A stretch of DNA of 64,000 bases from NCBI GenBank assembly GCA_964354215.1, contig CAYGYT010000001.1:11199-75198 (forward strand). Reading direction: 5' to 3'. Positions 2,940 through 54,049 of the stretch are shown here, in pieces. The first letter of the stretch is position 1. Every line of letters begins with the position of its first letter. The stretch comes from an uncultured Eubacteriales bacterium (GTDB lineage Bacteria > Actinomycetota > Coriobacteriia > Anaerosomatales > CAVRZR01). Below the pieces are notes generated by a model. The model saw nothing but the letters and a program-made list of their open reading frames with translations, was not told the DNA's origin and did no database searches. The position numbers and the translations under genes are program-made.

Positions 2940-2968
2940 CGCTGGGCTTGGTGAGGCGCTAGGCGCGG

Positions 2969-3595: not shown

Positions 3596-3648
3596 GAATG
3601 CTCCTCGTTCGTTCGCGGGGCACGGCGCCCCACGACAGTGCCACTTCT

Positions 3649-4608: not shown

Positions 4609-4616
4609 GAGCTGAC

Positions 4617-4877: not shown

Positions 4878-4958
4878 CTGGCTTACCTCCTTCCGCGGGA
4901 TACGCGGTGTGATGTGGCGCGGACGGCGGGAGGGTACCGCCGCCCACCTGGGTTGGTT

Positions 4959-5360: not shown

Positions 5361-5421
5361 GTACCCACCTTCATTCGTCACGGACCAACGTCACGGCATG
5401 GCGCATCCGTGTCGCCTCGTG

Positions 5422-5715: not shown

Positions 5716-5795
5716 TGTTCACCTCCTTTGGACTAGACGGCCCCGGGACCCTGAAGGCGAAATGCCCGGAGCAGGAAATGAGCCTGCGCAGTGTA

Positions 5796-7043: not shown

Positions 7044-7160
7044 GAGGCACCCGTCTTCCCAGCGGTGAGCACCGGGAGACGAGGGGCCTCTACGAACACA
7101 TGTTCGCCCTACCGGGGGGGATTCCTGCAAACGTCTTCACACGGATTCTGGAGGGACCAC

Positions 7161-7187
7161 GAACGAGAAAGGCCGCCATTGGCGGCC
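7161..7187 (-). terminator. Rho-independent terminator after tRNA-Gly
   Basis: ggccgcc-att-ggcggcc hairpin, followed on the minus strand by tttctcgttc. Confidence 0.65.
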
Positions 7188-7199
7188 CGGATCTGACGC

Positions 7200-7275
7200 T
7201 GGAGCGGGCGACGGGTCTCGAACCCGCGACCTAAAGCTTGGGAAGCTTTCGCTCTACCAACTGAGCTACGCCCGC
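7200..7275 (-). tRNA. tRNA-Gly (anticodon CCC), CCA encoded
   Basis: The reverse complement gcgggcgtagctcagttggtagagcgaaagcttcccaagctttaggtcgcgggttcgagacccgtcgcccgctcca folds as a cloverleaf. Anticodon loop is ttCCCaa and the T-loop is ttcgaga. Confidence 0.92.
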
Positions 7276-7311
7276 TTGCTCGCACGCCTCGCGTGCGCGG
7301 AACAGTCTACA

Positions 7312-7911
7312 TTAGGCTCGCTGACGCGTCACGGCGCCACGGGCGAGCGTCCTGGTCGACCGGCGCTCGACTTGCCAGAGTATGAGCGCGAGCAGGGACA
7401 CGACGATCGCCAGTGCTACCTTCCAGACGCGCACTTGGTCGATAGCGCGTCGGCCGGGGATGATGCGCTGGAGTGTGGTCGCGTGTATGTCCATGTCGCC
7501 GCCATGCTGCGCGCACGCTGCGTTGAAGGTCCCGCGCACCTCGACGACTTCGCCTTCGTGTTTGTAGTCGCCGTACGTGGCGATCTCGTTGGTGAGATCC
7601 GCAGGCAGCCACACGGGCATGCCCGTGTTGAAGCCGTGAAGGCCAGAGCCCTCTTCGACGTTCTTGAGGTAGTAGCCGTCGTCGTTGAGGTGAATCCACG
7701 CCTTGTCCCCGCGCACCATGCGCTGGGCGATCGCTTCGCCGCGGAAGGTCACCGTCTTGCCGTCCCAGAGCTTGGGCTGCTCGATGAGCTCGGTGCTTGA
7801 CGGCTTGTTGGGGCTTGGGGGAGCGTCTTCGGCCAGGGCCACGGTCGGCACCATAAGCATGCCACCCAGAAAAAGGGCAGCGAGAGCGAGACGGAGGCGG
7901 CGGGTATTCAC
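7312..7911 (-). CDS. Exported protein with N-terminal signal and C-terminal membrane anchor, last gene of the trk operon
   Basis: GTG 7911 overlaps the trkH stop (TAGTG) with GAGGGGG 5 nt upstream. Signal-like RRLRLALAALFLGGMLMVPTVALA and C-terminal VWKVALAIVVSLLALILW. Confidence 0.65.
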   Translation of the reverse strand: MNTRRLRLALAALFLGGMLMVPTVALAEDAPPSPNKPSSTELIEQPKLWDGKTVTFRGEAIAQRMVRGDKAWIHLNDDGYYLKNVEEGSGLHGFNTGMPVWLPADLTNEIATYGDYKHEGEVVEVRGTFNAACAQHGGDMDIHATTLQRIIPGRRAIDQVRVWKVALAIVVSLLALILWQVERRSTRTLARGAVTRQRA

Positions 7912-9413
7912 TAGCGCCCCCTCAGCATCGCGTAGCCGTAGCCGAAGAGCGCGAACACCGACATGAACTCGAGACGTCCGAGCCACATCGCGAGAATGAA
8001 CATGATCTTCATGAGCTCGGGCGTGGAGGGGGAAAGGACGCCGCATGAAAGGCCGGTGTTCGACCCTGCCGACACCATCTCAAAAGCGGCCTGCACGAAA
8101 TCGTAGCCGTACAACATGCCGACGACTGTGCCAACACCGTACATGGTGATGTAGGCGATTGTGATCGTCATGGCCGTGCGAACGAGCGCGTCGTCGAGCC
8201 AGACATCCCGGACGTGGTGGTACTTCGTGCGGACGACGGCGGACTCAGGGGAGACCATCTTGCGGATATCTCCGATGATCGCCTTGGTGATGATGCCTAT
8301 CCGGATTCCTTTGATGCCGCCACCTGTCGAGCATGCCGACGCACCGATCGCCATCGCAATCGTCGTGGCGATCAGCCCGACTGGCCCCCATTGCGTAACG
8401 AATGCGCGCGAGTAGACAGTTGAGAATCCGGTCGTCGTGTGACCGGAAGCAATGTTGTAGAAGACCTTGCGAAAGAGCGACATCGAGTTGGAGTACACAC
8501 CGACCTTGGCAAGCCAGAACGTGCCGATCAGCGCCGTAGCCGTCAATGTGATCGCGAAGGACAGCGTCTCGACGTTGCGGACGATCTCCTTGCGGTTGCC
8601 TGTCCACACGGCCCAATGCATCGCGAAGTTGAAAGAGCCGGAGATGAAGATGATCACGGCGATAATCTCGTAGAGCAGCGAGTGGAACCACATCGTGTTG
8701 TACGACTGGGGCGCAAAACCGCCTGTCGACCAGGCGCCCATGAAGACCCACAGGCCATCGAAGAACGCACGGACCGGTGGCTGGCCCAGCCACCATCCCG
8801 CGGCGAAGAGTGCCGCAGTGCCGACCACGAGGTAGGCGAGCGAGACGAGCCATATCGCGCGGGCGGTCTGCACGACGTTCGGGAGTAGCCGCTCGTCCTT
8901 GCCCTCGCCCACGTAGACCTTGTACGCGCCGGCCGTCCCCTTGAACAGGAACGTGAGCGCGATGACGACGATTCCCTGGCCGCCCGCATAGGTGAGCAGG
9001 TGGCGCCACATGTTCAGACCCATGCTCACGTGGTCAAGGTCCTGCAGCAGGTACAGGCCGGTCGTTGTGTACCCGCTCATCACGTCGAACATCGAGTCAA
9101 GATAGCTGCCCTCGTGCCCAGAGAGGTAGTGAGGCAGCGCGCCGAGGATAGTCGCGACGATCCAGGACCCCGACGCCACGACGAGGCCGTGGCTCCACTG
9201 CAGATCCTTCTCCGTCTTGAAGAAGAGCTGCGCGCCGAAGCCGAAGATCAAGCAGGCGGCGATACTGATGACGAAATCGAGAACGGTGTCCCACTCGGCG
9301 AAGGCGATCGAGGTCGCAAGCGGAATCGTCATCAGCAAACCGACACCCACGATGACCTTGCCGGTGTACGTACCGATGACGAGGTGGTCTTCTCGGCGAG
9401 GACGAACGATCAT
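7911..9413 (-). CDS. trkH: TrkH/KtrB-family potassium transporter membrane subunit
   Basis: About 500 aa and polytopic, with repeated selectivity-filter-like segments (MSGYTTTGL, GAWSTGGFAP, ASGHTTTGFS, VSAGSNTGLS). Confidence 0.88.
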   Translation of the reverse strand: MIVRPRREDHLVIGTYTGKVIVGVGLLMTIPLATSIAFAEWDTVLDFVISIAACLIFGFGAQLFFKTEKDLQWSHGLVVASGSWIVATILGALPHYLSGHEGSYLDSMFDVMSGYTTTGLYLLQDLDHVSMGLNMWRHLLTYAGGQGIVVIALTFLFKGTAGAYKVYVGEGKDERLLPNVVQTARAIWLVSLAYLVVGTAALFAAGWWLGQPPVRAFFDGLWVFMGAWSTGGFAPQSYNTMWFHSLLYEIIAVIIFISGSFNFAMHWAVWTGNRKEIVRNVETLSFAITLTATALIGTFWLAKVGVYSNSMSLFRKVFYNIASGHTTTGFSTVYSRAFVTQWGPVGLIATTIAMAIGASACSTGGGIKGIRIGIITKAIIGDIRKMVSPESAVVRTKYHHVRDVWLDDALVRTAMTITIAYITMYGVGTVVGMLYGYDFVQAAFEMVSAGSNTGLSCGVLSPSTPELMKIMFILAMWLGRLEFMSVFALFGYGYAMLRGR

Positions 9414-9423
9414 GAGGCGCCGC

Positions 9424-9582
9424 TCACCAGATTGCCATCGCGATGACCGCGAGTACGAACGCGATCAACATCAGACCGAGGATGAAAGCCGCCTCGGTGA
9501 GCATCCCCGCCGAATACCGGCCCCAGTGCTCACGCGCTGTGAGGCTCGGATAGCCCTCGTCCTTGTTCGAACGATCCACCAT
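9424..9582 (-). CDS. Small single-pass membrane peptide (52 aa) between trkA and trkH
   Basis: ATG 9582 with GGGAG 7 nt upstream. The C-terminal half AAFILGLMLIAFVLAVIAMAIW is a TM helix. The track only shows it inside a longer ORF. Confidence 0.5.
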   Translation of the reverse strand: MVDRSNKDEGYPSLTAREHWGRYSAGMLTEAAFILGLMLIAFVLAVIAMAIW

Positions 9583-9584
9583 GA

Positions 9585-10250
9585 CTAGACTCCCGTGAGC
9601 GCCTTCTTGAGCGCTCGCTCGTGGACAACGTTCGTGAACGCGATTACCACGTCGCCAGGCATGAGTTCTGTGTCGCCGTGCACCGTCATCGCATCCTCGC
9701 CACGTACGATGGCGACGAGCACGCAGTCGCCCGGGAGATCGAGCGACGCGACGGCCTTGTTGCACACGACGCAGCGGTCGACGGGCAGCTCGATCTCGAC
9801 GATCGCCATGTTGCCCTTGCGCAGCGTGGTCAGTGTGCGTATGTCGCCCACCGTCGCTTCTTCCTCGATCATTCGCGAGATGATCGTGGTCGAGGATATG
9901 GCCTCGATTCCGAGCGCGTTGAAGATGTGCTCGTTCTTCGGGTTGTTCACCCGCGCAACCGCGCGAGGTACGCCGAAGGCGACCTTCGCCAGTTGGCAGG
10001 CGACGAGGTTGTCGTCGTCATCACCGGTGACGGCGGCGAAGACGTCGGCGCGCGCAACGCCCGCGTCTTCCTGATAGGCGGCGTCGCAGCCGTCCCCCTG
10101 GATGATGAGGGTTCGTGAGGGCAGCTCGGTAGCGAGCTTCTCGACCACCTCGTCGCGCTTCTCGATGAGGGCGACGTCGTGGTTTGCGTCGAGCAGCGTA
10201 CGCGCGAGGTAGGACGCGACCTTGCCGCCGCCGTTGATGACGATGTACAC
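9585..10250 (-). CDS. trkA: TrkA/KtrA-type RCK protein (TrkA-N plus TrkA-C)
   Basis: (V)YIVINGGGKVASYLARTL Rossmann motif. GTG 10250 is preceded by GGAGGAG inside the end of the upstream gene. Confidence 0.88.
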   Translation of the reverse strand: MYIVINGGGKVASYLARTLLDANHDVALIEKRDEVVEKLATELPSRTLIIQGDGCDAAYQEDAGVARADVFAAVTGDDDDNLVACQLAKVAFGVPRAVARVNNPKNEHIFNALGIEAISSTTIISRMIEEEATVGDIRTLTTLRKGNMAIVEIELPVDRCVVCNKAVASLDLPGDCVLVAIVRGEDAMTVHGDTELMPGDVVIAFTNVVHERALKKALTGV

Positions 10251-10252
10251 GC

Positions 10253-10894
10253 CTACTCCTCCATGTACCGTTCGAGCTTCGTGAAACACTCTTCTTTGAC
10301 CGCTGCGATCACGATGTCGCCGGCCTGCAATGCCGTCTCGCTCTGTGGGATGAAGGTTGTCTTGCCGCGTGACACGGCCACGACGCGACACTCGTTGTCG
10401 CCCTCGACCTCGCGCACCTTGCGGGCATCGGCATCGCGATTCACCTTGAACTCGATGATCTCGACGTCGCCAAGGGCTGAGATGTGGTGCCCGTGGCCCG
10501 ACTTGATCTTGTCGAGCAGATTCTCGGCGACCAGCGTAGTGCCGCACACGTAGTCGAGTCCGAGCTGCTGGTACGTGCGCTCGCGCACGGGGTTGTACAG
10601 GCGCGCGACCACGTGCTTGACGCCGAAGATCTTCCGCGCGACCTCGGCGGCCATGAGGTTTGTGTTGTCGAGATCGGTGACGGCGGCGAACGAGTCGCAC
10701 TCGGCGATTCCCGCTTCGAGCAGCACGTCCTCGTCAAAACCGAGGCCGCGCACGGTGACGCCGTTGAAGGTGGTGCCGAGGCGACGGAACGCGTCGCCTT
10801 CCTTGTCGATGACCGTGACGTTGTGGCCCTCCACCGAGAGCAGATTGGCGAGCTGGGAGCCGACGCGCCCGCATCCCACCACGATGACGTTCAT
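10253..10894 (-). CDS. trkA: TrkA/KtrA-type RCK protein (TrkA-N plus TrkA-C)
   Basis: MNVIVVGCGRVGSQLANLL Rossmann motif. Start trimmed to ATG 10894. Confidence 0.88.
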   Translation of the reverse strand: MNVIVVGCGRVGSQLANLLSVEGHNVTVIDKEGDAFRRLGTTFNGVTVRGLGFDEDVLLEAGIAECDSFAAVTDLDNTNLMAAEVARKIFGVKHVVARLYNPVRERTYQQLGLDYVCGTTLVAENLLDKIKSGHGHHISALGDVEIIEFKVNRDADARKVREVEGDNECRVVAVSRGKTTFIPQSETALQAGDIVIAAVKEECFTKLERYMEE

Positions 10895-11126
10895 GAAGAG
10901 CCCCCGTGTTCGACCGTTAAGCTGCGTTCCGGACGCTATCGGCCGGAACGCGCCCCGGTCAATCGGCCGCAGGCGTTCTTTACGCCGACTTAACTGCGCA
11001 CGCACCGCAATCCACCCTCGACGCCGGACTCCCAAGTCACGCGCGGCGAGCGGTCCCGGACGTGCTACGGGCGCCGCGCGCGATTCCGCTGCGCGACGCC
11101 CGCTACTACAAGACGAACGCAGATAC
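10895..11126 (-). promoter_or_regulatory. Long structured 5' leader of the trk operon (candidate riboswitch)
   Basis: 232 nt without a credible ORF. Contains nested hairpins (gcgttccgg/ccggaacgc; cgcag..ggcgt-aaaga-acgcc..ctgcg) and GAATC / CGGGACC / GGGTGGATTG / CAGTTAAGTCGG elements. Confidence 0.35.
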
Positions 11127-11276
11127 CTACGACTTGCCGATCTTGTACATCTTCGTGCCACAATCCGGGCACGTGCCCTGAGTCGCCGGGCGACCGTTCT
11201 TCATCGTGATGTCCTGCGCGTCCTGGATCTCCTTCTTGGACTTGCACTTGACGCAGTAGCCTTCCTTGGCTGGCAT
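11127..11276 (-). CDS. Small zinc-ribbon protein (49 aa), DUF5679-like; absent from the ORF track
   Basis: MPAKEGYCVKCKSKKEIQDAQDITMKNGRPATQGTCPDCGTKMYKIGKS with a CxxC...CxxC pattern and a perfect RBS GGAGGTGA 6 nt upstream. Confidence 0.7.
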   Translation of the reverse strand: MPAKEGYCVKCKSKKEIQDAQDITMKNGRPATQGTCPDCGTKMYKIGKS

Positions 11277-11397: not shown

Positions 11398-12084
11398 TCA
11401 TGCACGCGGTGACTCGGATCCGTTCTCCGCTGTTTCAGCACGCCGTCCGACTCCTCTGCCGAGCAGCATAAGCACGACTCCCTGAAGCGCCACAAGCAGC
11501 GCAAGCGAGATGCCCGAAAGCGCCCAGAAACGCTCGGGGAAGAGCTGGATGAGCAGCGAATCGGCGGGAAAGACCCACGTCCCGGCTTCGAAGAATATGC
11601 CGTGGAACGCGGTGAAGAGGCGCTCGAAATCGGCGACCCCGACAACGGCAAGCAGCGGCGGCGCTATCAGGCAGGCGAGCCCTCCCCAACGCAGTGCCGA
11701 TCCGATGGAGCCCCAACGGCGGCGGCGCAGGCTCACTCCGAACCACACGACGAGTGCAAGTGCGAGCGCGATTCCGGCTGTCCGTGCGCGAAGCAGAACC
11801 TCCCGCACGTCAACGAGATGCGACACCGCCTGGGCGTCGAACCCGCCGCGCCCGCCGACCTCGGCGGGAAGCGGTGGAGCGTCGCGATCGGTGACGAAGA
11901 GACGAACCTGCTCGGCTGTGGCGACCGCCCCAGAGCGCGACAGCCCACTCGCTGCGGTTGTGTCGGATCCCCCGACGACGCGCGTGAACCACGGGGTCGT
12001 GAGCGCGGCCACGCTGACGGCAACAGCGACCGCGCAGAGTGCTACGGCGACAGCAAGCCGTTCGAGCACCGTCGCGACGCGCAC
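11398..12084 (-). CDS. Integral membrane protein, TIGR01906/DUF1461-like
   Basis: FTAFHGIFFEAGTWVFPADSLLIQLFPERFW signature. The GTG start overlaps the stop of the GGDEF gene (TAGTG). Confidence 0.7.
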   Translation of the reverse strand: MRVATVLERLAVAVALCAVAVAVSVAALTTPWFTRVVGGSDTTAASGLSRSGAVATAEQVRLFVTDRDAPPLPAEVGGRGGFDAQAVSHLVDVREVLLRARTAGIALALALVVWFGVSLRRRRWGSIGSALRWGGLACLIAPPLLAVVGVADFERLFTAFHGIFFEAGTWVFPADSLLIQLFPERFWALSGISLALLVALQGVVLMLLGRGVGRRAETAENGSESPRA

Positions 12085-13328
12085 TAGACCTGCGCCCCGC
12101 TCGCAATGCTCGCCCGGTCCCCACCCTCCTCGGACGACCTGCCGAGAGCGTCGTCGGCGGCGAGCAGCACATCGTCGGGCGTCAGGCCGTCATACGGGAA
12201 GACTGCGACGCCGACGCTGGCGGTGACGCCCACACCGTCCACCAGAGCACCCGCCACGACGCGCCTGACCGTATCCCCCACCTCGAGTGCTTGCTCGGTG
12301 CCGAAGAGGAACTTCCCATCGGGCATCTCGGTCAGCACGATCGCGAACTCCTCGCCACCATAGCGAGCAACGACGTTGGTGGACAGGAGCGAGTCGCCAC
12401 CCGGGGAGACAACGTTTCTCAGGCGCGTGGCGATCTCAACGAGCAGGCGATCGCCGCGGTTCAGTCCAAACTTGCTGTTGAACTCGCCGAAGTGATAGAG
12501 GTCCACGAGGATCAGGCAGACGGGCCGATCGTCTCTGCGGGCGCGGCTGAGCTCGGTTTGCAGCGCGCGATGGAAGTACGGCCGGTTGTACAGCCCGGTC
12601 GCGTCGTCCACGATCGAAGCGCTCTCGAGCTCGCGCTCCCGCGCGCCGAGCGATGCGACCATAAGCGTCGAGATCGCCGCCGCGCCCGCGATGACCGTGA
12701 CCTGCCAGAGGTATCGCACGCTCACGAACGTCACGTTCTGGTAGAGCGTCGGGTTCGCGAACGGGACGTTGACGGGCGGGAGCACGCCGAAGTATGGCCC
12801 CCACAGCACGCAGCCGAGAAGCACCGCGCACGCAGAAGCCAGGAACCAGGTACTCCGTGCCCTCGGCAAGATGAAGGCGCCCTCGAACACGAAGAGCGCA
12901 TAGATCGACCAGAACCACGAGCTCACACCGCCGCTGTAGTAGACAAGCACGCTCACGACGAGCGCGTCGAACAGAAGCTGCAGGTGGTTGAGGAATGCGA
13001 CGTTGCCAAGCCGGCGATAGGTGAGCAGGTAGAAGGTGTTGTAGAGCATCACGAACACGAGCGCGACAGCCGGTACCACCATGAGCTGCGTCAGTTCGCC
13101 AACCGGCAGGGCCTGCGCGTAGATCCAGGCGCCCAGAACGGAGTACACGGCAAGCGCAACGACGAGTGCCCAGCGAACCTTGATGACGAGGCCCACTCGG
13201 CGGGTATTCGCCTGAAGCGCTTCGATATCGTAGCGGGTCGGCTGCTCCCGCCACGTCACCTTGAGCGCGCGCGTGATCCTCTTACGAAGCCGACTCGGGC
13301 TCACTCGACCTCCGCTTGATACCGGCAT
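12084..13328 (-). CDS. Membrane-bound diguanylate cyclase (GGDEF domain)
   Basis: N-terminal polytopic domain, then ATGLYNRPYF...RYGGEEFAIVL...SVGVAVFP. Start set at ATG 13328. Confidence 0.85.
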   Translation of the reverse strand: MPVSSGGRVSPSRLRKRITRALKVTWREQPTRYDIEALQANTRRVGLVIKVRWALVVALAVYSVLGAWIYAQALPVGELTQLMVVPAVALVFVMLYNTFYLLTYRRLGNVAFLNHLQLLFDALVVSVLVYYSGGVSSWFWSIYALFVFEGAFILPRARSTWFLASACAVLLGCVLWGPYFGVLPPVNVPFANPTLYQNVTFVSVRYLWQVTVIAGAAAISTLMVASLGARERELESASIVDDATGLYNRPYFHRALQTELSRARRDDRPVCLILVDLYHFGEFNSKFGLNRGDRLLVEIATRLRNVVSPGGDSLLSTNVVARYGGEEFAIVLTEMPDGKFLFGTEQALEVGDTVRRVVAGALVDGVGVTASVGVAVFPYDGLTPDDVLLAADDALGRSSEEGGDRASIASGAQV

Positions 13329-13473
13329 GCGCAGTGGGATTCCCAGGGCGTGCCCGACAGTGTAGCACCGGCCCACGCCTCTGGACTGCCACGATGCGAG
13401 GGGTGTGCCGACAGGGCGTGGCCCCGTTTGGGGTCTAGCACCCGTATACTTGCCGCATGCCGAGGAGCCCGCG

Positions 13474-14439
13474 ATGAACGTCCAGGCCCTCGCCGCGTCG
13501 CTCGACTCGGCGATACGGACGCTCGCTCGCCTCGGCGGCGTGCTCGAGATAGCGCTCGTGCTCGTGGCGGCCGCACTCCTGATCGTCTCGCTCGTCGGCT
13601 CGCTCGCTTCGCGACGACGCGTGGTGCTCGGTATCGCGGCCGCAGTGCTTCTGGCCGGCGAGCTGCTGCTCGTATGGTTCCACTGGCGGGTCTGGAGCCT
13701 CGCGATCGTCGTCGATCCGGCGTCGGGGCAGACCGTCGGGCGCATCGCCGTCCCGCTGTGGGTGGAGTCCGAGAAGCTCTACGTGTGGGCGCTCATCGTG
13801 GCGCTGATGGGTCTCGCGGCACGTGAGGCTCGCGACGAGCTCCTCCCAGGAATCGGCGCGATCGTGGCGGCACTCGTGCTCGGCGCCGTCCTGTGGGGTC
13901 GTCCGTTCACTCACCCGCTGCCGTCGTTCTTCGGCCAGTACGCGGGCTACGTACAGGCGATGGCGTCGGGAGTGCCCCAGGCTGCGCAGTCGGCGTTCGA
14001 GGGGATCCAGGGTTCGCGGCAGTACTACTACAACACGTGGTACATGTGGGTCCATCCGCCGTTGCTCTTCTTCAGCTACGGCGCGTTCGCCGTCTCGTTC
14101 GTTGCGACCCTTCTCGCCGTCGTCCGTAGACACTCCTCCTACGAACGGCTCGCGTACCACTGGGCGCGCTTGGGCTATCTACCGCTCACCGCGGGCATGC
14201 TCCTCGGCTTTCCGTGGGCGATCCTCGCCTGGAGCGGGCAGTCGTGGTGGTGGTCGGGCAAGGTCAACATGTCGATCATGATGTGGCTGCTCTACACGGC
14301 CTACCTGCACGGACGTCTGTACCTGCGTCGGCGCGGCATGTGGCGCTGGGTGCTCGCACTGTCATTGCTCTCGTTCGCGATCCTCGTGTTGACGTACCTC
14401 GCCACGTACGTGGTCCCGGGGGCGCACAGCTATGCGTGA
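13474..14439 (+). CDS. CcsA/ResC-family haem-handling membrane protein with a divergent W-rich signature
   Basis: VHPPLLFFSYGAF, W-rich loop WAILAWSGQSWWWSGKVN and YTAYLHGR. GAGGAG RBS before ATG 13474. Confidence 0.7.
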   Translation: MNVQALAASLDSAIRTLARLGGVLEIALVLVAAALLIVSLVGSLASRRRVVLGIAAAVLLAGELLLVWFHWRVWSLAIVVDPASGQTVGRIAVPLWVESEKLYVWALIVALMGLAAREARDELLPGIGAIVAALVLGAVLWGRPFTHPLPSFFGQYAGYVQAMASGVPQAAQSAFEGIQGSRQYYYNTWYMWVHPPLLFFSYGAFAVSFVATLLAVVRRHSSYERLAYHWARLGYLPLTAGMLLGFPWAILAWSGQSWWWSGKVNMSIMMWLLYTAYLHGRLYLRRRGMWRWVLALSLLSFAILVLTYLATYVVPGAHSYA

Positions 14440-14445
14440 CGCGAC

Positions 14446-15189
14446 ATGATGACCGAGATCAGACAGAGGACGTGGGATTTCGCGCTCACGGTGATAACCG
14501 TCCTGCTGCTCGGGTCGCTCGGCGTGCAGTCGTTCATCGGAACGCTCTACTCATGGTGGGCCCAGCGGACGATTCCCGGATGGGAACAGACGGGGTACGC
14601 CGGCTTCGTACAGACGATGAACGCCCTCGCAGCTCCCCAGCTCGTGGCGCTCATCGTCGTGATGGGGCTCTGCGTACCGAAGCGCCTGTTCGAGCGCCGC
14701 GTACTGGCCGGAGTGTCCCTGGCGATGCTGTGCGCCGGTGTGGCAGTGTGGGCGGTGTTCGACAGCGTGGCAGCAGCGCTCGGCGCCTACCTCTCGCTCG
14801 CCGCCCTCATTCAAGTGGCGGTGGTGGCGCTTACGGTGGCCGGCGCACGCTCGCCCTCCTATCTCACCGAAGGACGCCTCACCAAGGTCGGCTCCGGGCT
14901 GCTTCACCTCGGCTTCATCATGTTCTGCTTCGTGGTCGCAGAGCTGCAGCGCTCGCGGTTCATGCTCCCCGCGTTCGCGCTCGCGGCACTCGCCATACTT
15001 GCCGGTACGGCGCTCTCGTTTTGGGCGGGGCGCGTCGCCTACGGCCCTACGCGGCCGCAGCCGTTCGCGGCGGTTGCGGAGGAGCCCGGACCGACGGGCG
15101 AGGACACCGAGGATCTCGCGGACGATGTGCTAGAGGTCGCGGACCATCGCAGCGACGAAGGAGGAGGCGAGCTCGACGAGCTCGGGTGA
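14446..15189 (+). CDS. Polytopic membrane protein of unknown function with acidic C-terminal tail
   Basis: Six or so hydrophobic helices, starts 6 nt after the CcsA-like gene, no family recognised. Confidence 0.6.
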   Translation: MMTEIRQRTWDFALTVITVLLLGSLGVQSFIGTLYSWWAQRTIPGWEQTGYAGFVQTMNALAAPQLVALIVVMGLCVPKRLFERRVLAGVSLAMLCAGVAVWAVFDSVAAALGAYLSLAALIQVAVVALTVAGARSPSYLTEGRLTKVGSGLLHLGFIMFCFVVAELQRSRFMLPAFALAALAILAGTALSFWAGRVAYGPTRPQPFAAVAEEPGPTGEDTEDLADDVLEVADHRSDEGGGELDELG

Positions 15190-17082: not shown

Positions 17083-17499
17083 TCAGGAGCCGCCGTGGCA
17101 GCTCACGCACTCGTTCAACCGGTAGACCGAGTGCCGCACCTGTTGAACGGGGTCGCCACTGTGACAGCGGCAGCCCGGTATCGGGATCACGAAGCGCCTC
17201 TCGATCGGCGCAGCGGTCCCTTGCGTGACCATCCGGTCGAACGCGGCGCGGTACTCCGTCGCAGGGCGCTCCATGCCGCCGAACGAATAGAGGAGCGCTG
17301 CGATGCCGACGAGCGCGAGCACGGTGATACCGACCCCGATCGCGACGCGCTTGAGCACGCGTCTCCAGTTCCGTCCCGGCGACCCGAGCCCGGAGGCGGG
17401 AGGTTCCTCGGCCACAGTCGAGGTCTCGTCGGCGAGAGGTTCGCGCTCTTCAACCCGACCCGGCTCTTCGACGGCGGTCTCTGTCTCGCGCGCGCTCAT
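17083..17499 (-). CDS. Membrane-anchored small c-type cytochrome-like protein (one CxxCH plus one CxCH)
   Basis: Acidic N-terminus, TM helix VAIGVGITVLALVGIAALLY, and C-terminal GCRCH (17161-17172) and ECVSCH. Start trimmed to ATG 17499 to avoid overlap with the upstream gene. Confidence 0.65.
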   Translation of the reverse strand: MSARETETAVEEPGRVEEREPLADETSTVAEEPPASGLGSPGRNWRRVLKRVAIGVGITVLALVGIAALLYSFGGMERPATEYRAAFDRMVTQGTAAPIERRFVIPIPGCRCHSGDPVQQVRHSVYRLNECVSCHGGS

Positions 17500-17537
17500 G
17501 GCTACGCCACCGCTCCCAGAATCAACATCCGGTGCGA

Positions 17538-17924
17538 CTACCCGTGGATGAGCTGGGGCAGACAGCGGGTGCACACCCACGTGGACGTGCCCCGAGTCCT
17601 GACGGGCAGCAGTGGACGGTCATCTTCTGAAGCCCCGCAGTTGAAACACGCCTGCGGGATGTAGGTCTTGGGCTGCTCAGCGACGTGCTCCTCCACGGCG
17701 TTGTGGTCGAACGGAACCGCCTCGCGTGTCTCTACGGTGAGCGCACCGGTCGGGCAGACGCCCAAGCAGAAGCCCGCTCCGTCGCAGAGCTCCTCTCGAA
17801 CCACGCGAGCCTTGCCGTCGATGATCTGGATCGCGCCCTCGGCGCACGGGCTCACGCACACTCCGCACCCGTTGCAGAGCTCCTCGTCGATACGGACGAT
17901 CTGTCTTGTGACTGTCGTTGACAT
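17538..17924 (-). CDS. 4Fe-4S dicluster ferredoxin-domain protein with Cys-rich C-terminal extension
   Basis: CNGCGVCVSPCAEGAI and CDGAGFCLGVCPTGAL cluster motifs, followed by CFNCG...CTRC. Confidence 0.85.
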   Translation of the reverse strand: MSTTVTRQIVRIDEELCNGCGVCVSPCAEGAIQIIDGKARVVREELCDGAGFCLGVCPTGALTVETREAVPFDHNAVEEHVAEQPKTYIPQACFNCGASEDDRPLLPVRTRGTSTWVCTRCLPQLIHG

Positions 17925-21136: not shown

Positions 21137-21299
21137 GCAGTCTCCGGGGTTGGGTGCAGTCGGGCAAGCCGCAGTGACAGCATACTCCCGCCCGCGCGAC
21201 TCTCGAAGCCAGTGCAAAGGGGCGCGCGGTGCACCCGAATTGCTGTCGTTGACGGAACGGTGACAAGGCCGTGGCTGGCACACGTGTTGCTTGCAATTT

Positions 21300-21397
21300 G
21301 GGCGAGCTGGGCGACCCGCCTTCTCCTCCCCCCTCAGGGGCGGAACCCGCCCGCTCGACGCAAAACGAGGCGCGCCCCCCACGCGCCTCGTTTCATT
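21300..21397 (+). ncRNA. Candidate 6C-like small RNA (two stem-loops with C-rich loops; the second is an intrinsic terminator)
   Basis: SL1: gggcg/ccgcc stems enclosing loop ttctcctcccccctca. SL2: aacgaggcgcg-cccccca-cgcgcctcgtt followed by tc att. Lies in a 316-bp gap between divergent genes. Confidence 0.45.
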
Positions 21398-21452
21398 CCC
21401 CAGACCGTTCTCTCGGGTACACTTCTGTCGTTTCTTTGGCGGAAGGAGCGGC

Positions 21453-36610: not shown

Positions 36611-37966
36611 CTATGCCTTCTTGCGGCGCGAGCGCAAGAAGGCGACGAGCCCGATCACGAGAGCGCCGAGAACTGCAACGGCCAAGACGGCCGGCAGCGC
36701 GCTGTTCCACTTCTCGGTCGCAGAATCGGACGTCTTTTCGCCTTCAACGGGCGCCGCTGAAGACCGCACGACCTGCTCGGCTGTGGCCATCTGGGTGGTT
36801 GGGTTCTCGACCTCGGCCTTCTCGGCAAGTTCCTCAGGCAGCGAGCGGTAGTTGAGGGTCGCAACGATCGTGGCCGAGGGCTGGTCGGGCATCGTGATGG
36901 TGTAGGTCTGGGTAACGGACGCCTGGGGCGGGATCCTGTCATCGGAGTGGACGCCGGTGGCCTCCCAGAGCTCCACCGGGTGCCGCCCCTTGTCGTCCTT
37001 CAGCACGGTTCCGAACTGGCGGGTACCGAGCGCCGTCTCCTTGCCGTCCGGCCCTGCTGCGGTCACGTCCAGCCACATCTGGCGCACCTCGGTAAGCCCG
37101 GTGGGCAAGTAGTGTCCCGCGCCCACGTTGGTGATCGTCACGGTCACCAACGCCGAGGCGCCCGGGGCAAGGATCTCCGGGGCATCGAGGCGCATCTCGG
37201 CTGCAGCCTTGAGGTTTGCGGTCGCGCGCTCCGCGTCACCCTGGCCCACGTTGCCCCCCACGAAGGTCATCGTGTAGATGTGCTCGCGCTGAGGGCCGCC
37301 TGCTGCGGCCTTGCCGGGATTGGGCTTCGTCACGCCGGGGCCCGGGGTCATGTGGCAGTCCTGGCAGACGACTCCAGCCTTCGCGTACGGGCCGTTCTTC
37401 CATTCTGAGTACGAGGACTCGAGGTGCATGCCGTTCACGGGATGGTCGACGTTGTGGCACGCGCCGCAGAACTCAGCCGACTCGTGGAACGCCGAGTAGG
37501 CGGTCGCGTGGACCGGAGAGACGGCGTCTTTGAGCTGGGCCCTCTTGGTTCCATCGAGTTTCAGGATCTGCGAGGTGTTGGACGGCGGCATAGTAGTACC
37601 TACCACTTGATGACAGAAGTCGCAGAAGACGCCCTGCGCCGATTGAGGAGAGAGCTTGCCGGTCGCGGCCTCTCCCGACATCACGGCCACGGGACCGTGG
37701 CAGGTGTCGCAGAATGCGCCCAGCTTCCCGTCGGTGGCCTTGTTCGCCTCGGCCTTCTTGGCCTGGTACGCCGGGTCGGCGAGTGCCTTGGCGTGCATCG
37801 TGACACTCCACTGGCTCAACAGTCCCGCGTGACAGCCGCAGGCCTCAGCGGGCTTGAAGGCCCTGGACGGCGCGTTTGGTAGTGCGCCAGCCCCCTGGAC
37901 CGCGCTCAGACAACCGATCAGAACAACCGCACTCGCTATGCACAGCTGAAACCGAATCGGCCTCAT
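36611..37966 (-). CDS. Multihaem c-type cytochrome, signal peptide plus C-terminal TM anchor (4 CxxCH and 1 CxCH)
   Basis: ACGCH (37829-37840), CDTCH, CDFCH, CGACH and CQDCH. C-terminal LPAVLAVAVLGALVIGLVAFLRSRRKK. Start set at MRPIRF (37966). Confidence 0.85.
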   Translation of the reverse strand: MRPIRFQLCIASAVVLIGCLSAVQGAGALPNAPSRAFKPAEACGCHAGLLSQWSVTMHAKALADPAYQAKKAEANKATDGKLGAFCDTCHGPVAVMSGEAATGKLSPQSAQGVFCDFCHQVVGTTMPPSNTSQILKLDGTKRAQLKDAVSPVHATAYSAFHESAEFCGACHNVDHPVNGMHLESSYSEWKNGPYAKAGVVCQDCHMTPGPGVTKPNPGKAAAGGPQREHIYTMTFVGGNVGQGDAERATANLKAAAEMRLDAPEILAPGASALVTVTITNVGAGHYLPTGLTEVRQMWLDVTAAGPDGKETALGTRQFGTVLKDDKGRHPVELWEATGVHSDDRIPPQASVTQTYTITMPDQPSATIVATLNYRSLPEELAEKAEVENPTTQMATAEQVVRSSAAPVEGEKTSDSATEKWNSALPAVLAVAVLGALVIGLVAFLRSRRKKA

Positions 37967-40242: not shown

Positions 40243-41673
40243 CTACCTCGTGCGGTCACCGCCGAAGTACTCGGGGACCGTCCGCACCTTCCTGCGGCGT
40301 CGACGCCGGACAAGGGCGAAGACGACTCCCGCAACAATCAACGCGCCGAGCAGCGCCGCGGCTCCTGCAAGCAGCTGCGAGGTGCTCACGCTCGCTCCGC
40401 GCTCGGCCCGACGTTTCGCCTGTTTCGACCCGTAGACCACCTTCTGAGCGCGTGCCATCTCGGTCACGGGGTTCTCGACTCGCGCCTTCTTTGCCATCTC
40501 CTCCGGGAACGACTTGTAGTTCAGGACTGCTTCTACCGCTACGCCGCCCTCGGTTGTCATCGGGAACGCATACGTGGAGTGCACGGCGTTCTTGGGCGGG
40601 ATTCGGTCGTCTGACTGAACAGCCACCGCGTCCCAGAGCTGGACGGGGTAGCGTCCCTCGGCGTCTCGGTACACCGTCCCGAACTGACGACGGCCCAGCA
40701 GTCGCTTCGCCCCATCGGGAGAGACCGCGTTCACCTCGAGCCACATCTGGCGGATCTCCGCGACTCCCGCCGGGATGTAGTGTCCGGCCCCGACGTTCGC
40801 GACGGTGACCTTCACCGATCCGGTCGTTCCGGGCTCGACCACGTCGGACGCCTCGAGCGAGACCCGTGCGGCAGCTTTGAGGTTCATGCGCGCCCGGGGG
40901 GCGTTGCCCAGGGGCACGTTCGCGCCGACGAAGTTCATGAGGTAGACGAAGTTCCGGATCGGTCCCATGGGGGCGGCCCGGCCAACGGTCGGCCCTCCGC
41001 CTGGCCGAGCGCTCATGTGGCAGTCCTGACACACAATGCCGAGGGCCGCGTAGGGCCCCGCTTTCCACTCGGGGTAGGTCGTGTCGAGCATGACCCCCGT
41101 GGTGGGGTGCTTGAGTGTATGGCACGCGCCACAGAACTCCGCGCTCGTGTGGAACTTGGAGAAGGCGTTCTTGTGAGTCGGCGCCGACGAATCGGGGTAC
41201 TGGGCTCGCTTCGTGCCGTTGGCCCGCAGCTTCTGAGAGGCGTTTCGTATCGGCTTCTTCGTGCCGGTGACCTGGTGGCAGAAGTCGCAGGTCACTCCCT
41301 CCTTGCTCTGAGGAGAGAGCTTCGACTCGCCTTTCGTCTGCCCCGCCATAGTTCCGATAGGCGTGTGGCAGGTGTCGCAGAACGTACCGAGGCTCCCGCC
41401 CGTGGCTTTGTTGGCCTCTTGCTTCTTGACCACGTACACGGGGTCGTAGAGAGCCTTCGCGTGCATCGACAGAGCCCATTCGTCACGCTGCTGCCCATGG
41501 CACGTGCAGGAGGTGGCGGGCTGGAAGCGTTTCGCAGGGATGTCTGGCAGCGCCTCGGCCTGCTGCGGCAGCATGCAGAGGAGTACCGAGGCGATCGCAC
41601 ACGCGGAGACGACCGCGCCGGCTCGAATCGCTCGCAGAGTGGGGCGGGGAGGTGTGCTGGTGGTTCGTGCCAT
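40243..41673 (-). CDS. Multihaem c-type cytochrome, paralogue of 36611-37966 (4 CxxCH and 1 CxCH, C-terminal anchor)
   Basis: SCTCH (41497-41508), CDTCH, CDFCH, CGACH and CQDCH. C-terminal LLAGAAALLGALIVAGVVFALVRRRRRRK. GGAGG RBS before ATG 41673. Confidence 0.85.
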   Translation of the reverse strand: MARTTSTPPRPTLRAIRAGAVVSACAIASVLLCMLPQQAEALPDIPAKRFQPATSCTCHGQQRDEWALSMHAKALYDPVYVVKKQEANKATGGSLGTFCDTCHTPIGTMAGQTKGESKLSPQSKEGVTCDFCHQVTGTKKPIRNASQKLRANGTKRAQYPDSSAPTHKNAFSKFHTSAEFCGACHTLKHPTTGVMLDTTYPEWKAGPYAALGIVCQDCHMSARPGGGPTVGRAAPMGPIRNFVYLMNFVGANVPLGNAPRARMNLKAAARVSLEASDVVEPGTTGSVKVTVANVGAGHYIPAGVAEIRQMWLEVNAVSPDGAKRLLGRRQFGTVYRDAEGRYPVQLWDAVAVQSDDRIPPKNAVHSTYAFPMTTEGGVAVEAVLNYKSFPEEMAKKARVENPVTEMARAQKVVYGSKQAKRRAERGASVSTSQLLAGAAALLGALIVAGVVFALVRRRRRRKVRTVPEYFGGDRTR

Positions 41674-41750
41674 CCGTCGCCTCCAAGCGCCGGTCGCCCG
41701 TTTGCCCCACAAACAGGCTACCTGAAGTCCACCCCGTCGTCCTACTGCAC

Positions 41751-41780
41751 GAAGACCCCAGCGGTACCGCCGGGGTCTTC
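41751..41780 (-). terminator. Strong hairpin between the small anchored protein gene and cytochrome paralogue 2 (no clear U-tract)
   Basis: gaagacccc / ggggtcttc 9-bp stem with a 12-nt loop. Confidence 0.35.
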
Positions 41781-41806
41781 GGATTCTCGACTCGGGCTGA
41801 GAGACG

Positions 41807-42127
41807 TCAGGCAGGGGCTCCGGTCTTTCGGCTGGCCAGAACACCCCAGACGACGATCGCGACGATCGCGACGAGCGACGAGACTGCCCAAAACAGGTTC
41901 AGCAGGTCGCCCTCCTTGCTCCACGGCGTCGTGGCCTTCGCCTCGGCCGCAGTCGCGTCGGGCGGAGCCTCGGGCAACACGATGAGCGGGGCCACGACCA
42001 CGACTTTCTTCGCAGCCGTGGTGGCCGCGGTCGTCGTGGGCGTGGCCGTAGCGGCAAACCCTGCTGCAGGCAGCGTGAAGGTCAGGAGCACGAGCAGGCA
42101 CGCGAGTGTGAGCAGTACGCGCTTCAT
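41807..42127 (-). CDS. Small secreted protein with Thr/Ala-rich spacer and C-terminal TM anchor
   Basis: Signal peptide MKRVLLTLACLLVLLTFTLPAAGFA, C-terminal LFWAVSSLVAIVAIVVWGVLA, and GGAGGT RBS. Confidence 0.65.
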   Translation of the reverse strand: MKRVLLTLACLLVLLTFTLPAAGFAATATPTTTAATTAAKKVVVVAPLIVLPEAPPDATAAEAKATTPWSKEGDLLNLFWAVSSLVAIVAIVVWGVLASRKTGAPA

Positions 42128-52204: not shown

Positions 52205-52272
52205 CCAGTACCCCTCCACATTCTAGGACGGCGAGGTCGCATTATACGCGAGCTACCCGAACGCACAAACCC

Positions 52273-54046: not shown

Positions 54047-54049
54047 CTT

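What the first reader, a model, noticed from the sequence alone, without database searches (positions are those of the whole stretch)
13474..15189. CcsA-like haem-handling protein with an altered WWD signature and a non-ResB partner
The protein has the family hallmarks (VHPPLLFFSYGAF ... W-rich loop ... YTAYLHGR). However, the canonical WG..W.WDPKE signature reads WSGQSWWWSGKVN, so the Asp and the Pro-Lys-Glu context are replaced. No large ResB/CcsB-type gene is adjacent. Instead a 247-aa polytopic protein of unknown family starts 6 nt downstream. In Wolinella, dedicated CcsA-type lyases (NrfI, CcsA1) service the non-standard CXXCK and CX15CH sites. A divergent lyase in a genome that encodes three CxCH-containing proteins in this window alone could be their dedicated maturation factor. 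That link is inference only.
Basis: inference. Interest (0 to 1): 0.6.

Follow-up and report, generated by a model that had tools for sequence, protein, structure and literature searches.

The report
Split CcmF-type haem lyase gene pair
These two adjacent membrane-protein genes are the two halves of a trimmed, divergent CcmF-type enzyme of the kind that attaches haem to cytochromes. They belong to an uncharacterised clade previously noted only in methane-oxidising archaea, and here they sit in a bacterium whose cytochromes carry an unreported Cys-X-Cys-His motif.

Summary
Gene A (13474-14439, 321 aa) is a PF01578 protein with the loop AWSGQSWWWSGKVNMS. Gene B (247 aa, no Pfam family) starts 6 nt later. 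No ResB gene is nearby.

The classification needs correcting. A matches the N-terminal ~310 residues of CcmF, not CcsA (hhalign 99%). B is colinear with the next ~200 residues of CcmF, and its invariant His154 falls on CcmF's TM-His2. The pair is therefore a split CcmF that lacks the periplasmic C-domain.

B follows A in ~80 of 84 genome loci and 59 of 60 metagenome loci. The family is the "CcmF3" clade of ANME archaea and Ferroglobus (37% identity). It also occurs in 123 mostly Coriobacteriia species and in Desulfobacterales.

Most members keep WWWDPK. The Ser-Gly version was seen only in Coriobacteriia-type loci. The pair is never beside other maturation genes. One carrier genome (EMTCatB1) has further ccmC, ccmF and ccdA genes elsewhere.

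The CxCH motif is real. CGCH is kept in 115 of 115 pentahaem homologues and aligns to the haem-1 CXXCH of a solved c552. A small PGCxCH protein lies 2-9 kb downstream in 42 of 54 loci.

A dedicated CxCH lyase remains possible but is untested.

The parts
13462..13467 (+). Ribosome-binding site GAGGAG, 6 nt before the ATG of gene A
   Evidence: Read directly from the sequence.
13474..14439 (+). Gene A: the N-terminal half of a split CcmF-type haem lyase (321 aa, about 8 transmembrane helices, 'CcmF3' clade)
   Evidence: Pfam PF01578, E 3.4e-23. AlphaFold2 model with pLDDT 90.8. Best PDB folds are CcmF 6ZMQ and CcsBA 7S9Y. hhalign to 28 CcmF proteins gives probability 99.25%, A 44-321 against CcmF 35-308. 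37% identity to ANME-2a CcmF3, E 7e-72.
13681..13683 (+). His70 (WFHW), at the outer end of helix 2. It is specific to this clade and has no counterpart in canonical CcmF.
   Evidence: Invariant in 109 homologues. Present in 72 of 74 wider-family members, with gaps in the other 2. Absent from the Ferroglobus member. Its position is inferred from the model's helices.
14053..14055 (+). His194 (MWVHPP), equivalent to P-His1, the outer haem ligand before the W-loop
   Evidence: Invariant in 74 of 74. Aligned to the invariant CcmF column H172.
14230..14268 (+). The W-rich (WWD) loop, WSGQSWWWSGKVN. The Asp-Pro of canonical W-x-W-D-P is Ser261-Gly262.
   Evidence: Invariant in the Coriobacteriia clade. 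Position 261 is D 57 / S 16 / A 1 and position 262 is P 70 / G 3 / A 1 across the family. Aligned to CcmF WGGYWAWDPVEN.
14308..14310 (+). His279 (YLHGR), equivalent to CcmF TM-His1, the membrane-embedded haem ligand
   Evidence: Invariant in 74 of 74. Aligned to the invariant CcmF H260 column.
14425..14427 (+). His318 (PGAHSYA), equivalent to P-His2, the outer haem ligand at the C-terminus of A
   Evidence: Invariant in 74 of 74. Aligned to the invariant CcmF H302 column.
14446..15189 (+). Gene B: the C-terminal transmembrane half of the split CcmF (247 aa, six helices, with a variable acidic tail from about residue 200). The periplasmic domain of CcmF is missing.
   Evidence: No Pfam or NCBIfam family. 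Found directly after A in ~80 of 84 genome loci and 59 of 60 metagenome loci. hhalign to CcmF 349-421 gives probability 92.7%. Greedy hhalign gives B 2-192 against CcmF 332-546, probability 90%. HMMER with a CcmF profile matches positions 350-499, E 6.7e-6. Model pLDDT 84.6.
14671..14673 (+). Cys76 of B (GLC[VI]PKR), at the inner end of helix 2; role unknown
   Evidence: Invariant in 110 Coriobacteriia homologues and in 28 of 28 non-redundant partners from other lineages.
14905..14907 (+). His154 of B (GSGLLHLGF), equivalent to CcmF TM-His2, the proposed second ligand of the membrane haem
   Evidence: Invariant. Aligned on the invariant CcmF column H501 in both hhalign and HMMER alignments.
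17083..17580 (-). Candidate substrate, link not shown. A small membrane-anchored protein ending in IPGCRCHSGDP...H...CVSCH. The CxCH codons are at 17161-17172.
   Evidence: No Pfam family. Homologues with PGCxCH are kept in 58 of 58 hits. The gene lies 2.3-8.6 kb downstream of the pair in 42 of 54 Coriobacteriia loci.
36611..37966 (-). Candidate substrate, link not shown. A pentahaem-type cytochrome with CGCH (37829-37840) plus four CXXCH motifs and a C-terminal membrane anchor.
   Evidence: CGCH is kept in 115 of 115 full-length homologues. It aligns to the first CXXCH of chain 5ZE8_A with a one-residue gap.
40243..41844 (-). Candidate substrate, link not shown. A paralogous pentahaem-type cytochrome with CTCH (41497-41508) plus four CXXCH motifs.

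Best explanation
Genes A and B encode the two subunits of one membrane complex: a CcmF-type haem lyase that has been split and trimmed. It belongs to the uncharacterised 'CcmF3' clade.

Proposed architecture. A supplies the outward-facing haem pocket, made of the W-rich loop between His194 and His318, plus one membrane histidine (His279). B supplies the second membrane histidine (His154). Together His279 and His154 would hold a haem inside the membrane, as TM-His1 and TM-His2 do in CcmF. The complex would act on the outer face of the membrane of this single-membrane bacterium and attach haem covalently to cytochrome c precursors.

Proposed role. It is most likely an accessory synthetase working beside the organism's main maturation genes, serving some subset of the many multihaem cytochromes. 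Which subset is unknown. The Ser-Gly change in the W-loop is a Coriobacteriia-specific variant of a loop that is WWWDPK in most relatives.

What is shown and what is inferred. Shown: the homology, the colinear split, the conserved residues, the obligate pairing and the phyletic spread. Inferred: that the two proteins form a complex, that they bind haem, that they have lyase activity, the source of the haem, and the substrate range.
For: Identity of A: PF01578. Confident model whose best PDB matches are CcmF 6ZMQ and CcsBA 7S9Y. hhalign to CcmF 35-308 at probability 99.25%.

Identity of B: colinear with CcmF 332-546, with His154 on the TM-His2 column. A CcmF profile picks only A (E 1.7e-21, positions 12-293) and B (E 6.7e-6, positions 350-499) out of the 611 ORFs of the window.

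Conservation: all four canonical histidines are invariant in the 74 A sequences (H194, H279, H318) and the 28 B sequences (H154) examined.

Obligate pairing: B follows A in ~80 of 84 genome loci, 59 of 60 metagenome loci, and in Thermodesulfobacteriota and a 53%-GC lineage.

Same clade as 'CcmF3': 37% identity, E 7e-72, to ANME-2a. The published alignment and tree place the ANME-2a/2b/2d/3 and Ferroglobus sequences with the same motifs on one long branch. Chadwick et al. describe CcmF3 as the larger of two genes of a split CcmF.

Carriers are rich in multihaem cytochromes: 17-18 multihaems in the two cultured Anaerosomatales (PMC9686372), ANME and Ferroglobus, and multihaem genes within 10 kb in some loci.

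Accessory role: EMTCatB1, which carries the pair (L072), lists at least two ccmC-type genes, a ccmF and a ccdA elsewhere. None lies within 10 kb of the pair.

Precedents: a split CcmF is functional in Methanosarcina acetivorans (PMC9084895). NrfE is a CcmF paralogue dedicated to one site (cited).
Against: No member of this clade has been tested experimentally.

The periplasmic domain of CcmF is absent. So is one helix between the end of A and the start of B.

The Asp, Pro and Glu of the canonical WWD motif are replaced.

No CcmE, CcmC, CcmH, ResB or CcdA motif or profile hit occurs within 10 kb of the pair in 2.2 Mb of flanks. If the carrier genomes lack CcmE (presence could not be tested), the haem donor would be unknown.

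The pair sits among housekeeping genes, about 43 kb from dnaA here, and not with cytochrome genes.

B's similarity to CcmF is modest (probability 90-93%). Foldseek of B alone found nothing useful.

Sequence searches of A and of its profile against PDB chains found no CcmF or CcsBA.
Confidence: 0.6

Rival explanations
1. The pair is a lyase dedicated to the Cys-X-Cys-His sites. On this view the Ser-Gly W-loop positions haem for a motif with only one residue between the cysteines. The general maturation system handles CXXCH.
For: CxCH is strictly kept in two unrelated families of the same lineage: PGCxCH in 58 of 58 hits and CGCH in 115 of 115. It replaces the haem-1 CXXCH of a solved pentahaem c552 with a one-residue deletion. 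In all loci sampled, the WWWSGKVN variant and CxCH genes were seen only together in Coriobacteriia-type loci. About 78 loci with other W-loops (748 kb) have no CxCH ORF, while L168 (SG type) has two. The small CxCH gene lies 2.3-8.6 kb downstream in 42 of 54 loci. Pentahaem genes share contigs with the pair, judged by matching contig lengths. Other maturation genes exist in EMTCatB1. Precedents are NrfE, NrfI and CcsA1 (own knowledge; NrfE is cited).
Against: The pair is never adjacent to a CxCH gene, whereas known dedicated lyases usually are. Gene order across this whole region is conserved in the order, so distance carries little weight. Twelve SG-type loci, including EMTCatB1, have no small CxCH gene within 10 kb. 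Clade-level co-occurrence could be shared ancestry only. Relatives in archaea and Desulfobacterales show that the family's basic role does not depend on CxCH. It is not shown that haem is bound at CxCH at all.
Confidence: 0.18
2. The pair is the main, housekeeping cytochrome c synthetase of this lineage and matures all c-type cytochromes. The other PF01578 genes would have other roles, for example HemX-like control of haem synthesis.
For: The pair is present in 123 species representatives and strongly conserved (60-80% identity) in a core chromosomal region near the origin. These organisms need to mature 17-18 multihaems. In EMTCatB1 the other ccmC-type genes lie near hemD, as hemX does in Bacillus (own knowledge).
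Against: In ANME, Ferroglobus and Desulfobacterales the clade coexists with a canonical CcmF or another system. The cultured Anaerosomatales have 'cytochrome c biogenesis proteins' clustered with multihaem genes elsewhere. EMTCatB1 also lists a separate ccmF.
Confidence: 0.12
3. The pair handles haem but is not a lyase. It could be a haem exporter, sensor or regulator (HemX/YpjD-like), or a small haem-b membrane redox module.
For: CcmF's periplasmic domain is lost and the WWD Asp, Pro and Glu are changed. The context is orphan and housekeeping in every lineage. There are extra invariant residues with no counterpart in CcmF, namely A-His70 and B-Cys76. PF01578 does contain non-lyase members (own knowledge).
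Against: Both outer histidines and the tryptophan-rich loop, which form the haem-presenting site of lyases, are fully conserved. All carriers identified by name or lineage are cytochrome-rich anaerobes. The family branches within CcmF in the published tree.
Confidence: 0.12
4. It is a System II CcsA/ResC whose ResB partner has been replaced by an unrelated small protein.
For: PF01578 match, and a weak hit to the CcsA model TIGR03144 (E 7.4e-11). The organism is Gram-positive, where System II is usual (own knowledge). Databases name it CcsA.
Against: The TIGR03144 score is 42 bits against a cut-off of 188. NrfE and CcmF models score higher. The N-terminal 190 residues align only to CcmF. The partner is colinear with the CcmF C-terminal half.
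Confidence: 0.03

Closest known systems
'CcmF3' clade of ANME-2a/2b/2d/3 archaea and Ferroglobus placidus (Chadwick et al. 2022, PMC9012536, Fig 12A)
   Same: Same protein family: 37% identity over the whole length to the ANME-2a S7142MS1 sequence. The motifs are shared: N-terminal WFH, PLWIExEKLYFW, YMWxHPP, GYPWAxxAW...WWW[DS][PG]K[IV], YLHxR and PGxH. It is described there as the larger of two genes of a split CcmF. The small partner is present in the archaeal-type metagenome loci.
   Different: Those members keep Asp-Pro (WWWDPK). This one has Ser-Gly. Those are archaeal and coexist with CcmABCE plus a canonical CcmF. This one is in a Gram-positive bacterium whose other maturation genes are not known. 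No function has been tested for either.
CcmF / NrfE, the System I haem lyase (E. coli; Thermus thermophilus structure 6ZMQ)
   Same: Fold. Order and conservation of P-His1, the W-loop, TM-His1, P-His2 and TM-His2. The N-terminal helices and hairpin are also shared.
   Different: CcmF is one polypeptide of ~650 aa; here there are two genes. The periplasmic C-domain (PF16327 region) and one helix are missing. WGGxWxWDPVEN has become WSGQSWWWSGKVN. There is an extra invariant His70. No CcmE or CcmH is seen nearby. Scores are far below the NCBIfam cut-offs.
Split CcmF of Methanosarcina acetivorans (CcmF2 = N-terminal part, CcmF1 = C-terminal part; PMC9084895)
   Same: CcmF is encoded as two adjacent genes. 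The N-terminal part carries the WWD loop and is essential. There is no CcmH.
   Different: The Methanosarcina proteins are of the canonical type. A guide-RNA target inside ccmF2 encodes SLIPWLT, the canonical post-WWD string, against SIMMWLLY here (my own reading of the frame). From the guide-RNA coordinates, the C-terminal gene appears to lie upstream of the N-terminal one if the operon is on the minus strand, which would be the reverse of the order here (my inference). That system works with CcmABCE.
CcsA/ResC with ResB/CcsB, or fused CcsBA (System II); the dedicated Wolinella lyases NrfI and CcsA1
   Same: Same superfamily and fold (7S9Y). Four-histidine logic. The idea of one lyase per unusual haem motif (own knowledge).
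   Different: There is no ResB-like partner or domain. The N-terminal half is unlike CcsA. The score is below the CcsA equivalog cut-off. Wolinella's dedicated lyases lie next to their substrate genes (own knowledge), whereas this pair does not.

Membership tests
Haem-handling protein superfamily (Pfam PF01578, Cytochrom_C_asm) | Score above the Pfam gathering threshold | tested here: met
   82.8 bits against a cut-off of 29.9, residues 101-313.
Haem-handling protein superfamily (Pfam PF01578, Cytochrom_C_asm) | A tryptophan-rich outer loop flanked by two conserved histidines | tested here: met
   His194, W253-W260 and His318 are invariant across 74 family members.
CcsA/ResC (System II, NCBIfam TIGR03144) | Score above the equivalog cut-off | tested here: not met
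   42.2 bits against a cut-off of 187.6. Only residues 222-321 match.
CcsA/ResC (System II, NCBIfam TIGR03144) | A ResB/CcsB (PF05140) partner, adjacent or fused | tested here: not met
   No PF05140 hit among the ~45 ORFs of the window scanned against Pfam; about 12 ORFs at 549-11161 and one at 21291-22421 were not scanned. The partner has no Pfam family and aligns to CcmF instead.
CcsA/ResC (System II, NCBIfam TIGR03144) | WWD signature W-G-x-x-W-x-W-D-P-K-E | tested here: not met
   The loop reads W-S-G-Q-S-W-W-W-S-G-K-V-N. Asp, Pro and Glu are replaced.
CcmF/NrfE (System I lyase; TIGR00353, TIGR03145) | Score above the NCBIfam cut-offs | tested here: not met
   46.6 bits against 569, and 46.8 bits against 927.
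CcmF/NrfE (System I lyase; TIGR00353, TIGR03145) | Homology over the N-terminal half, including the helices before P-His1 | tested here: met
   hhalign probability 99.25%, A 44-321 against CcmF 35-308. HMMER matches profile positions 12-293.
CcmF/NrfE (System I lyase; TIGR00353, TIGR03145) | Four conserved histidines (P-His1, TM-His1, P-His2, TM-His2) in the canonical order | tested here: met
   A-H194, A-H279, A-H318 and B-H154 fall on the invariant CcmF columns H172, H260, H302 and H501.
CcmF/NrfE (System I lyase; TIGR00353, TIGR03145) | CcmF_C domain (PF16327) including the periplasmic region | tested here: not met
   B has no Pfam hit. Only the transmembrane part, up to about CcmF residue 546 in P0311 numbering, has a counterpart.
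CcmF/NrfE (System I lyase; TIGR00353, TIGR03145) | Works with CcmE, CcmH and CcmABC encoded in the same genome | not testable with these tools
   Whole genomes could not be read. No CcmE or CcmC motif occurs in 2.2 Mb of flanks. The EMTCatB1 table lists ccmC, ccmF and ccdA but no ccmE, though the stored file is truncated.
'CcmF3' split-CcmF clade (Chadwick et al. 2022) | Sequence membership in the clade of the published alignment and tree | tested here: met
   37% identity, E 7e-72, to sequence 17498961 (ANME-2a). Motifs are shared. Those sequences form one long-branched clade together with Ferroglobus. The label 'CcmF3' is matched from the figure legend, not from a labelled file.
'CcmF3' split-CcmF clade (Chadwick et al. 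2022) | Two adjacent genes, with the larger one N-terminal | tested here: met
   A is 321 aa and B is 247 aa, 6 nt apart. The pairing holds in 59 of 60 metagenome loci, including the archaeal-type ones.

The most novel reading that the evidence does not exclude
Cys-X-Cys-His may be a true, previously undescribed haem c attachment motif, with a single residue between the cysteines. It arose by a one-residue deletion at the haem-1 site of a pentahaem cytochrome and is also used by a small dihaem-like protein. On this reading, the Coriobacteriia-specific WWWSGKVN version of the CcmF3-type split lyase is the enzyme that attaches haem to it. It would act without CcmE, taking haem through its own membrane histidine pair.
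Probability: 0.15. Interest if true: 0.85.

Novelty: new variant of a known kind. Interest (0 to 1): 0.55.

Why it matters
Haem lyases decide which cytochromes a cell can make. Failure of foreign hosts to mature unusual cytochromes is a practical obstacle. For example, Cgr1 of the related Eggerthella lenta could not be matured heterologously (PMC5953540).

This work does three things:
- It shows that an uncharacterised CcmF paralogue, so far mentioned only for ANME archaea and Ferroglobus, is a self-contained two-gene module. The module is spread across archaea, Coriobacteriia and Desulfobacterales; the carriers identified by name or lineage are anaerobes rich in multihaem cytochromes.
- It gives the module a residue-level anatomy that can be mutated.
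- It places the module in a lineage that conserves a CX1CH motif at a bona fide haem site.

If the two are linked, this would add a new attachment motif and its enzyme. If they are not, the clade still needs a function.

Tried and rejected
Searches that gave nothing useful:
- Sequence and profile searches of A and B against PDB chains found no CcmF or CcsBA.
- Foldseek of the B model alone returned only generic helical bundles.

Genome inventory not achieved:
- The supplement of the Anaerosomatales paper held nothing relevant.
- Only the EMTCatB1 expression table gave a partial inventory.

Literature:
- Searches for a CXCH or CX1CH haem motif found nothing relevant.

Ideas considered and rejected:
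- The W-loop as an error or chance feature. It is invariant in 109 homologues.
- A as a CcsA with a novel CcsB. This was rejected on the hhalign and HMMER colinearity with CcmF.
- The pair being the same as the Methanosarcina CcmF2/CcmF1 split. That one is of the canonical type.
- Conserved neighbours in other lineages as functional clues. They are housekeeping genes such as cupin PGI, GAPDH, a PAN-like ATPase and PFK.
- CcmE, CcmC or canonical WWD motifs near any family member. None was found in 2.2 Mb.
Full report
**What is there.** The window is 64 kb of 60-69% GC DNA. It holds the replication origin region: parBA, jag, yidC, dnaA at 57245-58669, dnaN, recF and gyrB. Close homologues of its proteins come from uncultured Coriobacteriia of the Anaerosomatales/OPB41 type.

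Gene A runs 13474-14439 on the + strand. The longest ORF starts at 13405. The ATG at 13474 is preceded by GAGGAG and fits the ~321-aa homologues. Gene B starts 6 nt after A's stop codon and encodes 247 aa. A reaches PF01578. It falls far short of every NCBIfam equivalog, and the NrfE/CcmF models score slightly above the CcsA model. B has no Pfam or NCBIfam family.

**The W-loop is real but is a clade variant.** AWxG(E/Q)SWWWSGKVNMS is invariant in 109 homologues at 60-80% identity. A profile search of 1.84 billion representatives found 46 clusters at E<1e-30, then a gap to ordinary CcmF and CcsA proteins near E 1e-13. More distant family members read WWWSPKIN or WWWDPKI[NS].

In 80 metagenome loci fetched with the divergent members, 54 read WWWDPK. 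The rest read WW[WFY][DSA][PA]K or similar, and only two high-GC loci read WWWSGKVN. Over 74 non-redundant sequences the 'WWD Asp' position is D 57, S 16, A 1. The next position is P 70, G 3, A 1. His70, His194, His279 and His318 are 97-100% conserved. Loss of the Asp is therefore not what defines the family.

**A is the front half of a CcmF.** The AlphaFold2 model is confident (pLDDT 90.8). Its only meaningful PDB matches are CcmF 6ZMQ and CcsBA 7S9Y. Library hits that cover A from residue ~25 to 320 are 650-790-aa proteins with PF01578 plus CcmF_C. Profile-profile comparison with 28 such CcmF proteins gives probability 99.25%, A 44-321 against CcmF 35-308. This match includes the N-terminal helices and the W-x-x-x-E-x-x-L-x-x-W segment. 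His194, His279 and His318 fall on the invariant CcmF histidines.

**B is the next part of the same CcmF.** B residues 13-87 align to CcmF 349-421 (probability 92.7%). This is just after the point where A ends. A greedier alignment extends the match colinearly, B 2-192 against CcmF 332-546 (probability 90%). It puts GSGLLH154LGF on the invariant ...LxH501LG... column, which is TM-His2. Plain HMMER with the CcmF profile, run on all 611 ORFs of the window, finds only A (positions 12-293) and B (positions 350-499, E 6.7e-6).

One helix between the two parts, and the periplasmic domain after TM-His2, have no counterpart. By the positive-inside rule and by analogy with CcmF, A ends outside and B starts inside. 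This fits the loss of one helix (inference).

**The pair is an obligate, self-contained module.** B follows A in ~80 of 84 genome loci and in 59 of 60 metagenome loci. The same holds in a Thermodesulfobacteriota contig and in a 53%-GC Gram-positive-like contig. B keeps Cys76 (GLC[VI]PKR) and His154 in 28 of 28 non-redundant partners.

In 2.2 Mb of flanks no CcmE, CcmC or canonical WWD motif occurs. With two exceptions, no other ORF matches the CcmF profile. In L135 and L136 a second hit (E 2.5e-6) lies about 5 kb downstream of A; this was not followed up. Neighbours are housekeeping genes that differ by lineage.

**The clade has been seen before.** The largest metagenome groups have archaeal-looking neighbours: cupin PGI, archaeal-type GAPDH and a PAN-like ATPase. 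The CcmF alignment in the ANME comparative-genomics paper (PMC9012536, Fig12A.faa) contains the same proteins with the same loops, WKDSAWWWDPKISG and WEGKDWWWDPKING. In its tree they form one long-branched clade of Ferroglobus placidus, ANME-2a, -2b, -2d and -3. [quoted passage not shown] Window A is 37% identical to the ANME-2a member (E 7e-72).

The genetically studied split CcmF of Methanosarcina acetivorans is a different, canonical type. A guide target in ccmF2 encodes SLIPWLT.

Bacterial members were seen in three places. They occur in 123 GTDB species representatives, mostly Coriobacteriia. They occur in clusters named Deltaproteobacteria, Thermodesulfobacteriota and Desulfobacterales. 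One unassigned 53%-GC contig also carries the pair. I found no description of bacterial members in the papers I searched.

**Is it the only such gene in the genome?** This could not be tested for the window's organism. The EMTCatB1 genome carries the pair (L072, WWWSGKVNM). Its published expression table lists ccmC-type genes 1c0390 and 1c0392 (the latter very highly expressed), ccmF 1c0395 and ccdA 1d0292, close in numbering to hemD 1c0385. The 20 kb around the pair in L072 holds no hemD and no second PF01578 or CcmF-like ORF. Those genes are therefore elsewhere. The cultured Anaerosomatales have 17-18 multihaems and 'cytochrome c biogenesis proteins' clustered with multihaem genes. The pair therefore looks like an additional system, as it is in ANME.

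**The CxCH proteins.** Among the ORFs that passed a codon-position GC filter, the window's only three CXXCH proteins are also its only three CxCH proteins.

The two paralogous cytochromes (36611-38062 and 40243-41844) have CxCH followed by four CXXCH motifs and a C-terminal anchor. All 115 full-length homologues among the top 120 keep CGCH..L...W..SMH. The other five are truncated gene calls. phmmer aligns all five motifs to five CXXCH motifs of chain 5ZE8_A (cytochrome c552). CGCH aligns to C-A-N-C-H with a one-residue gap. CxCH is therefore a deletion variant of a real haem site.

The small protein (17083-17580) has a single membrane helix and ends in IPGCxCHSDDP...H...CxxCH. The motif is kept in 58 of 58 hits. 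The gene lies 2.3-8.6 kb downstream of the pair in 42 of 54 Coriobacteriia loci. Two paper searches found no description of such a motif.

**Weighing the link.** In favour: both the SG loop and the CxCH proteins were seen only in the Coriobacteriia clade. About 78 loci of other loop types (748 kb) have no CxCH ORF, though four have ordinary multihaems. The one SG-type metagenome locus with flanks has two small CxCH genes. Against: the whole region is syntenic in this order, so proximity and co-occurrence may only reflect ancestry. Twelve SG-type loci lack the small gene nearby. The family clearly has a role that predates CxCH.

**Verdict.** I rate the split-CcmF identity as nearly certain, a lyase role as likely, and CxCH specificity as an open and attractive minority reading.

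Noticed in passing
window 36611-38062(-) and 40243-41844(-); CxCH codons at 37829-37840 and 41497-41508: Two paralogous pentahaem-type cytochromes in which the first haem motif is CxCH (CGCH, CTCH) instead of CXXCH. CGCH is kept in 115 of 115 full-length homologues. It aligns to the first CXXCH of PDB chain 5ZE8_A with a one-residue gap. I found no report of a CX1CH haem motif.
   Followed up: partly
window 17083-17580(-); homologues in L004-L082 and L168: A small single-helix membrane protein whose ~35-residue tail reads IPGCxCHSDDP..x..H..YRMNxCxxCH. It has no Pfam family and is often present in two tandem copies. It sits in a nitrosative-stress-type cluster (ferredoxin, YgbA_NO, Crp). The hybrid-cluster protein gene present at this spot in L001 and L004 is absent from the window.
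   Followed up: partly
window 38191-40179(-): A 662-aa DUF4012 protein lies between the two CxCH cytochrome paralogues. In L090 there is a single cytochrome copy and no DUF4012 gene, so the window has a local duplication or insertion.
   Followed up: no
window 15130-15189: The 3' ends of gene B (+) and the convergent M28 peptidase gene (-) overlap by 60 nt. The overlapped part of B is its variable acidic tail, which most homologues (~212 aa) lack.
   Followed up: no
window 12084-13745(-): The mechanical ORF of the GGDEF diguanylate cyclase (553 aa) runs into gene A. Homologues are 405-426 aa, so the true start is probably near 13300. That leaves a divergent intergenic region of roughly 150-200 nt shared with gene A.
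   Followed up: no
window 50249-63766: The chromosomal origin region is in the window: parB, parA, jag, yidC, dnaA (57245-58669), dnaN, recF, DciA and gyrB. The A-B pair lies about 43 kb from dnaA and the CxCH cytochromes about 16-20 kb from it.
   Followed up: partly
L092-L171 (metagenome loci); PMC9012536 Fig12A: The same two-gene module occurs in ANME-2a/2b/2d/3 and Ferroglobus (archaea), in Coriobacteriia and in Desulfobacterales/Thermodesulfobacteriota. The named carriers are anaerobes that rely on multihaem cytochromes. This suggests transfer between domains within such communities.
   Followed up: partly
Supplementary table of PMC7943316 (EMTCatB1 genome, the source of L072): One ccmC-type gene (1c0392) is among the most highly expressed genes. 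It lies close in numbering to hemD, a second ccmC and a ccmF. This points to a separate haem-synthesis and cytochrome-maturation cluster in these bacteria.
   Followed up: no
L135 16251-16922 and L136 15903-16574: In two archaeal-type loci a second ORF about 5 kb downstream of gene A also matches the CcmF profile (E 2.5e-6). It may be a further CcmF C-terminal-like gene.
   Followed up: no
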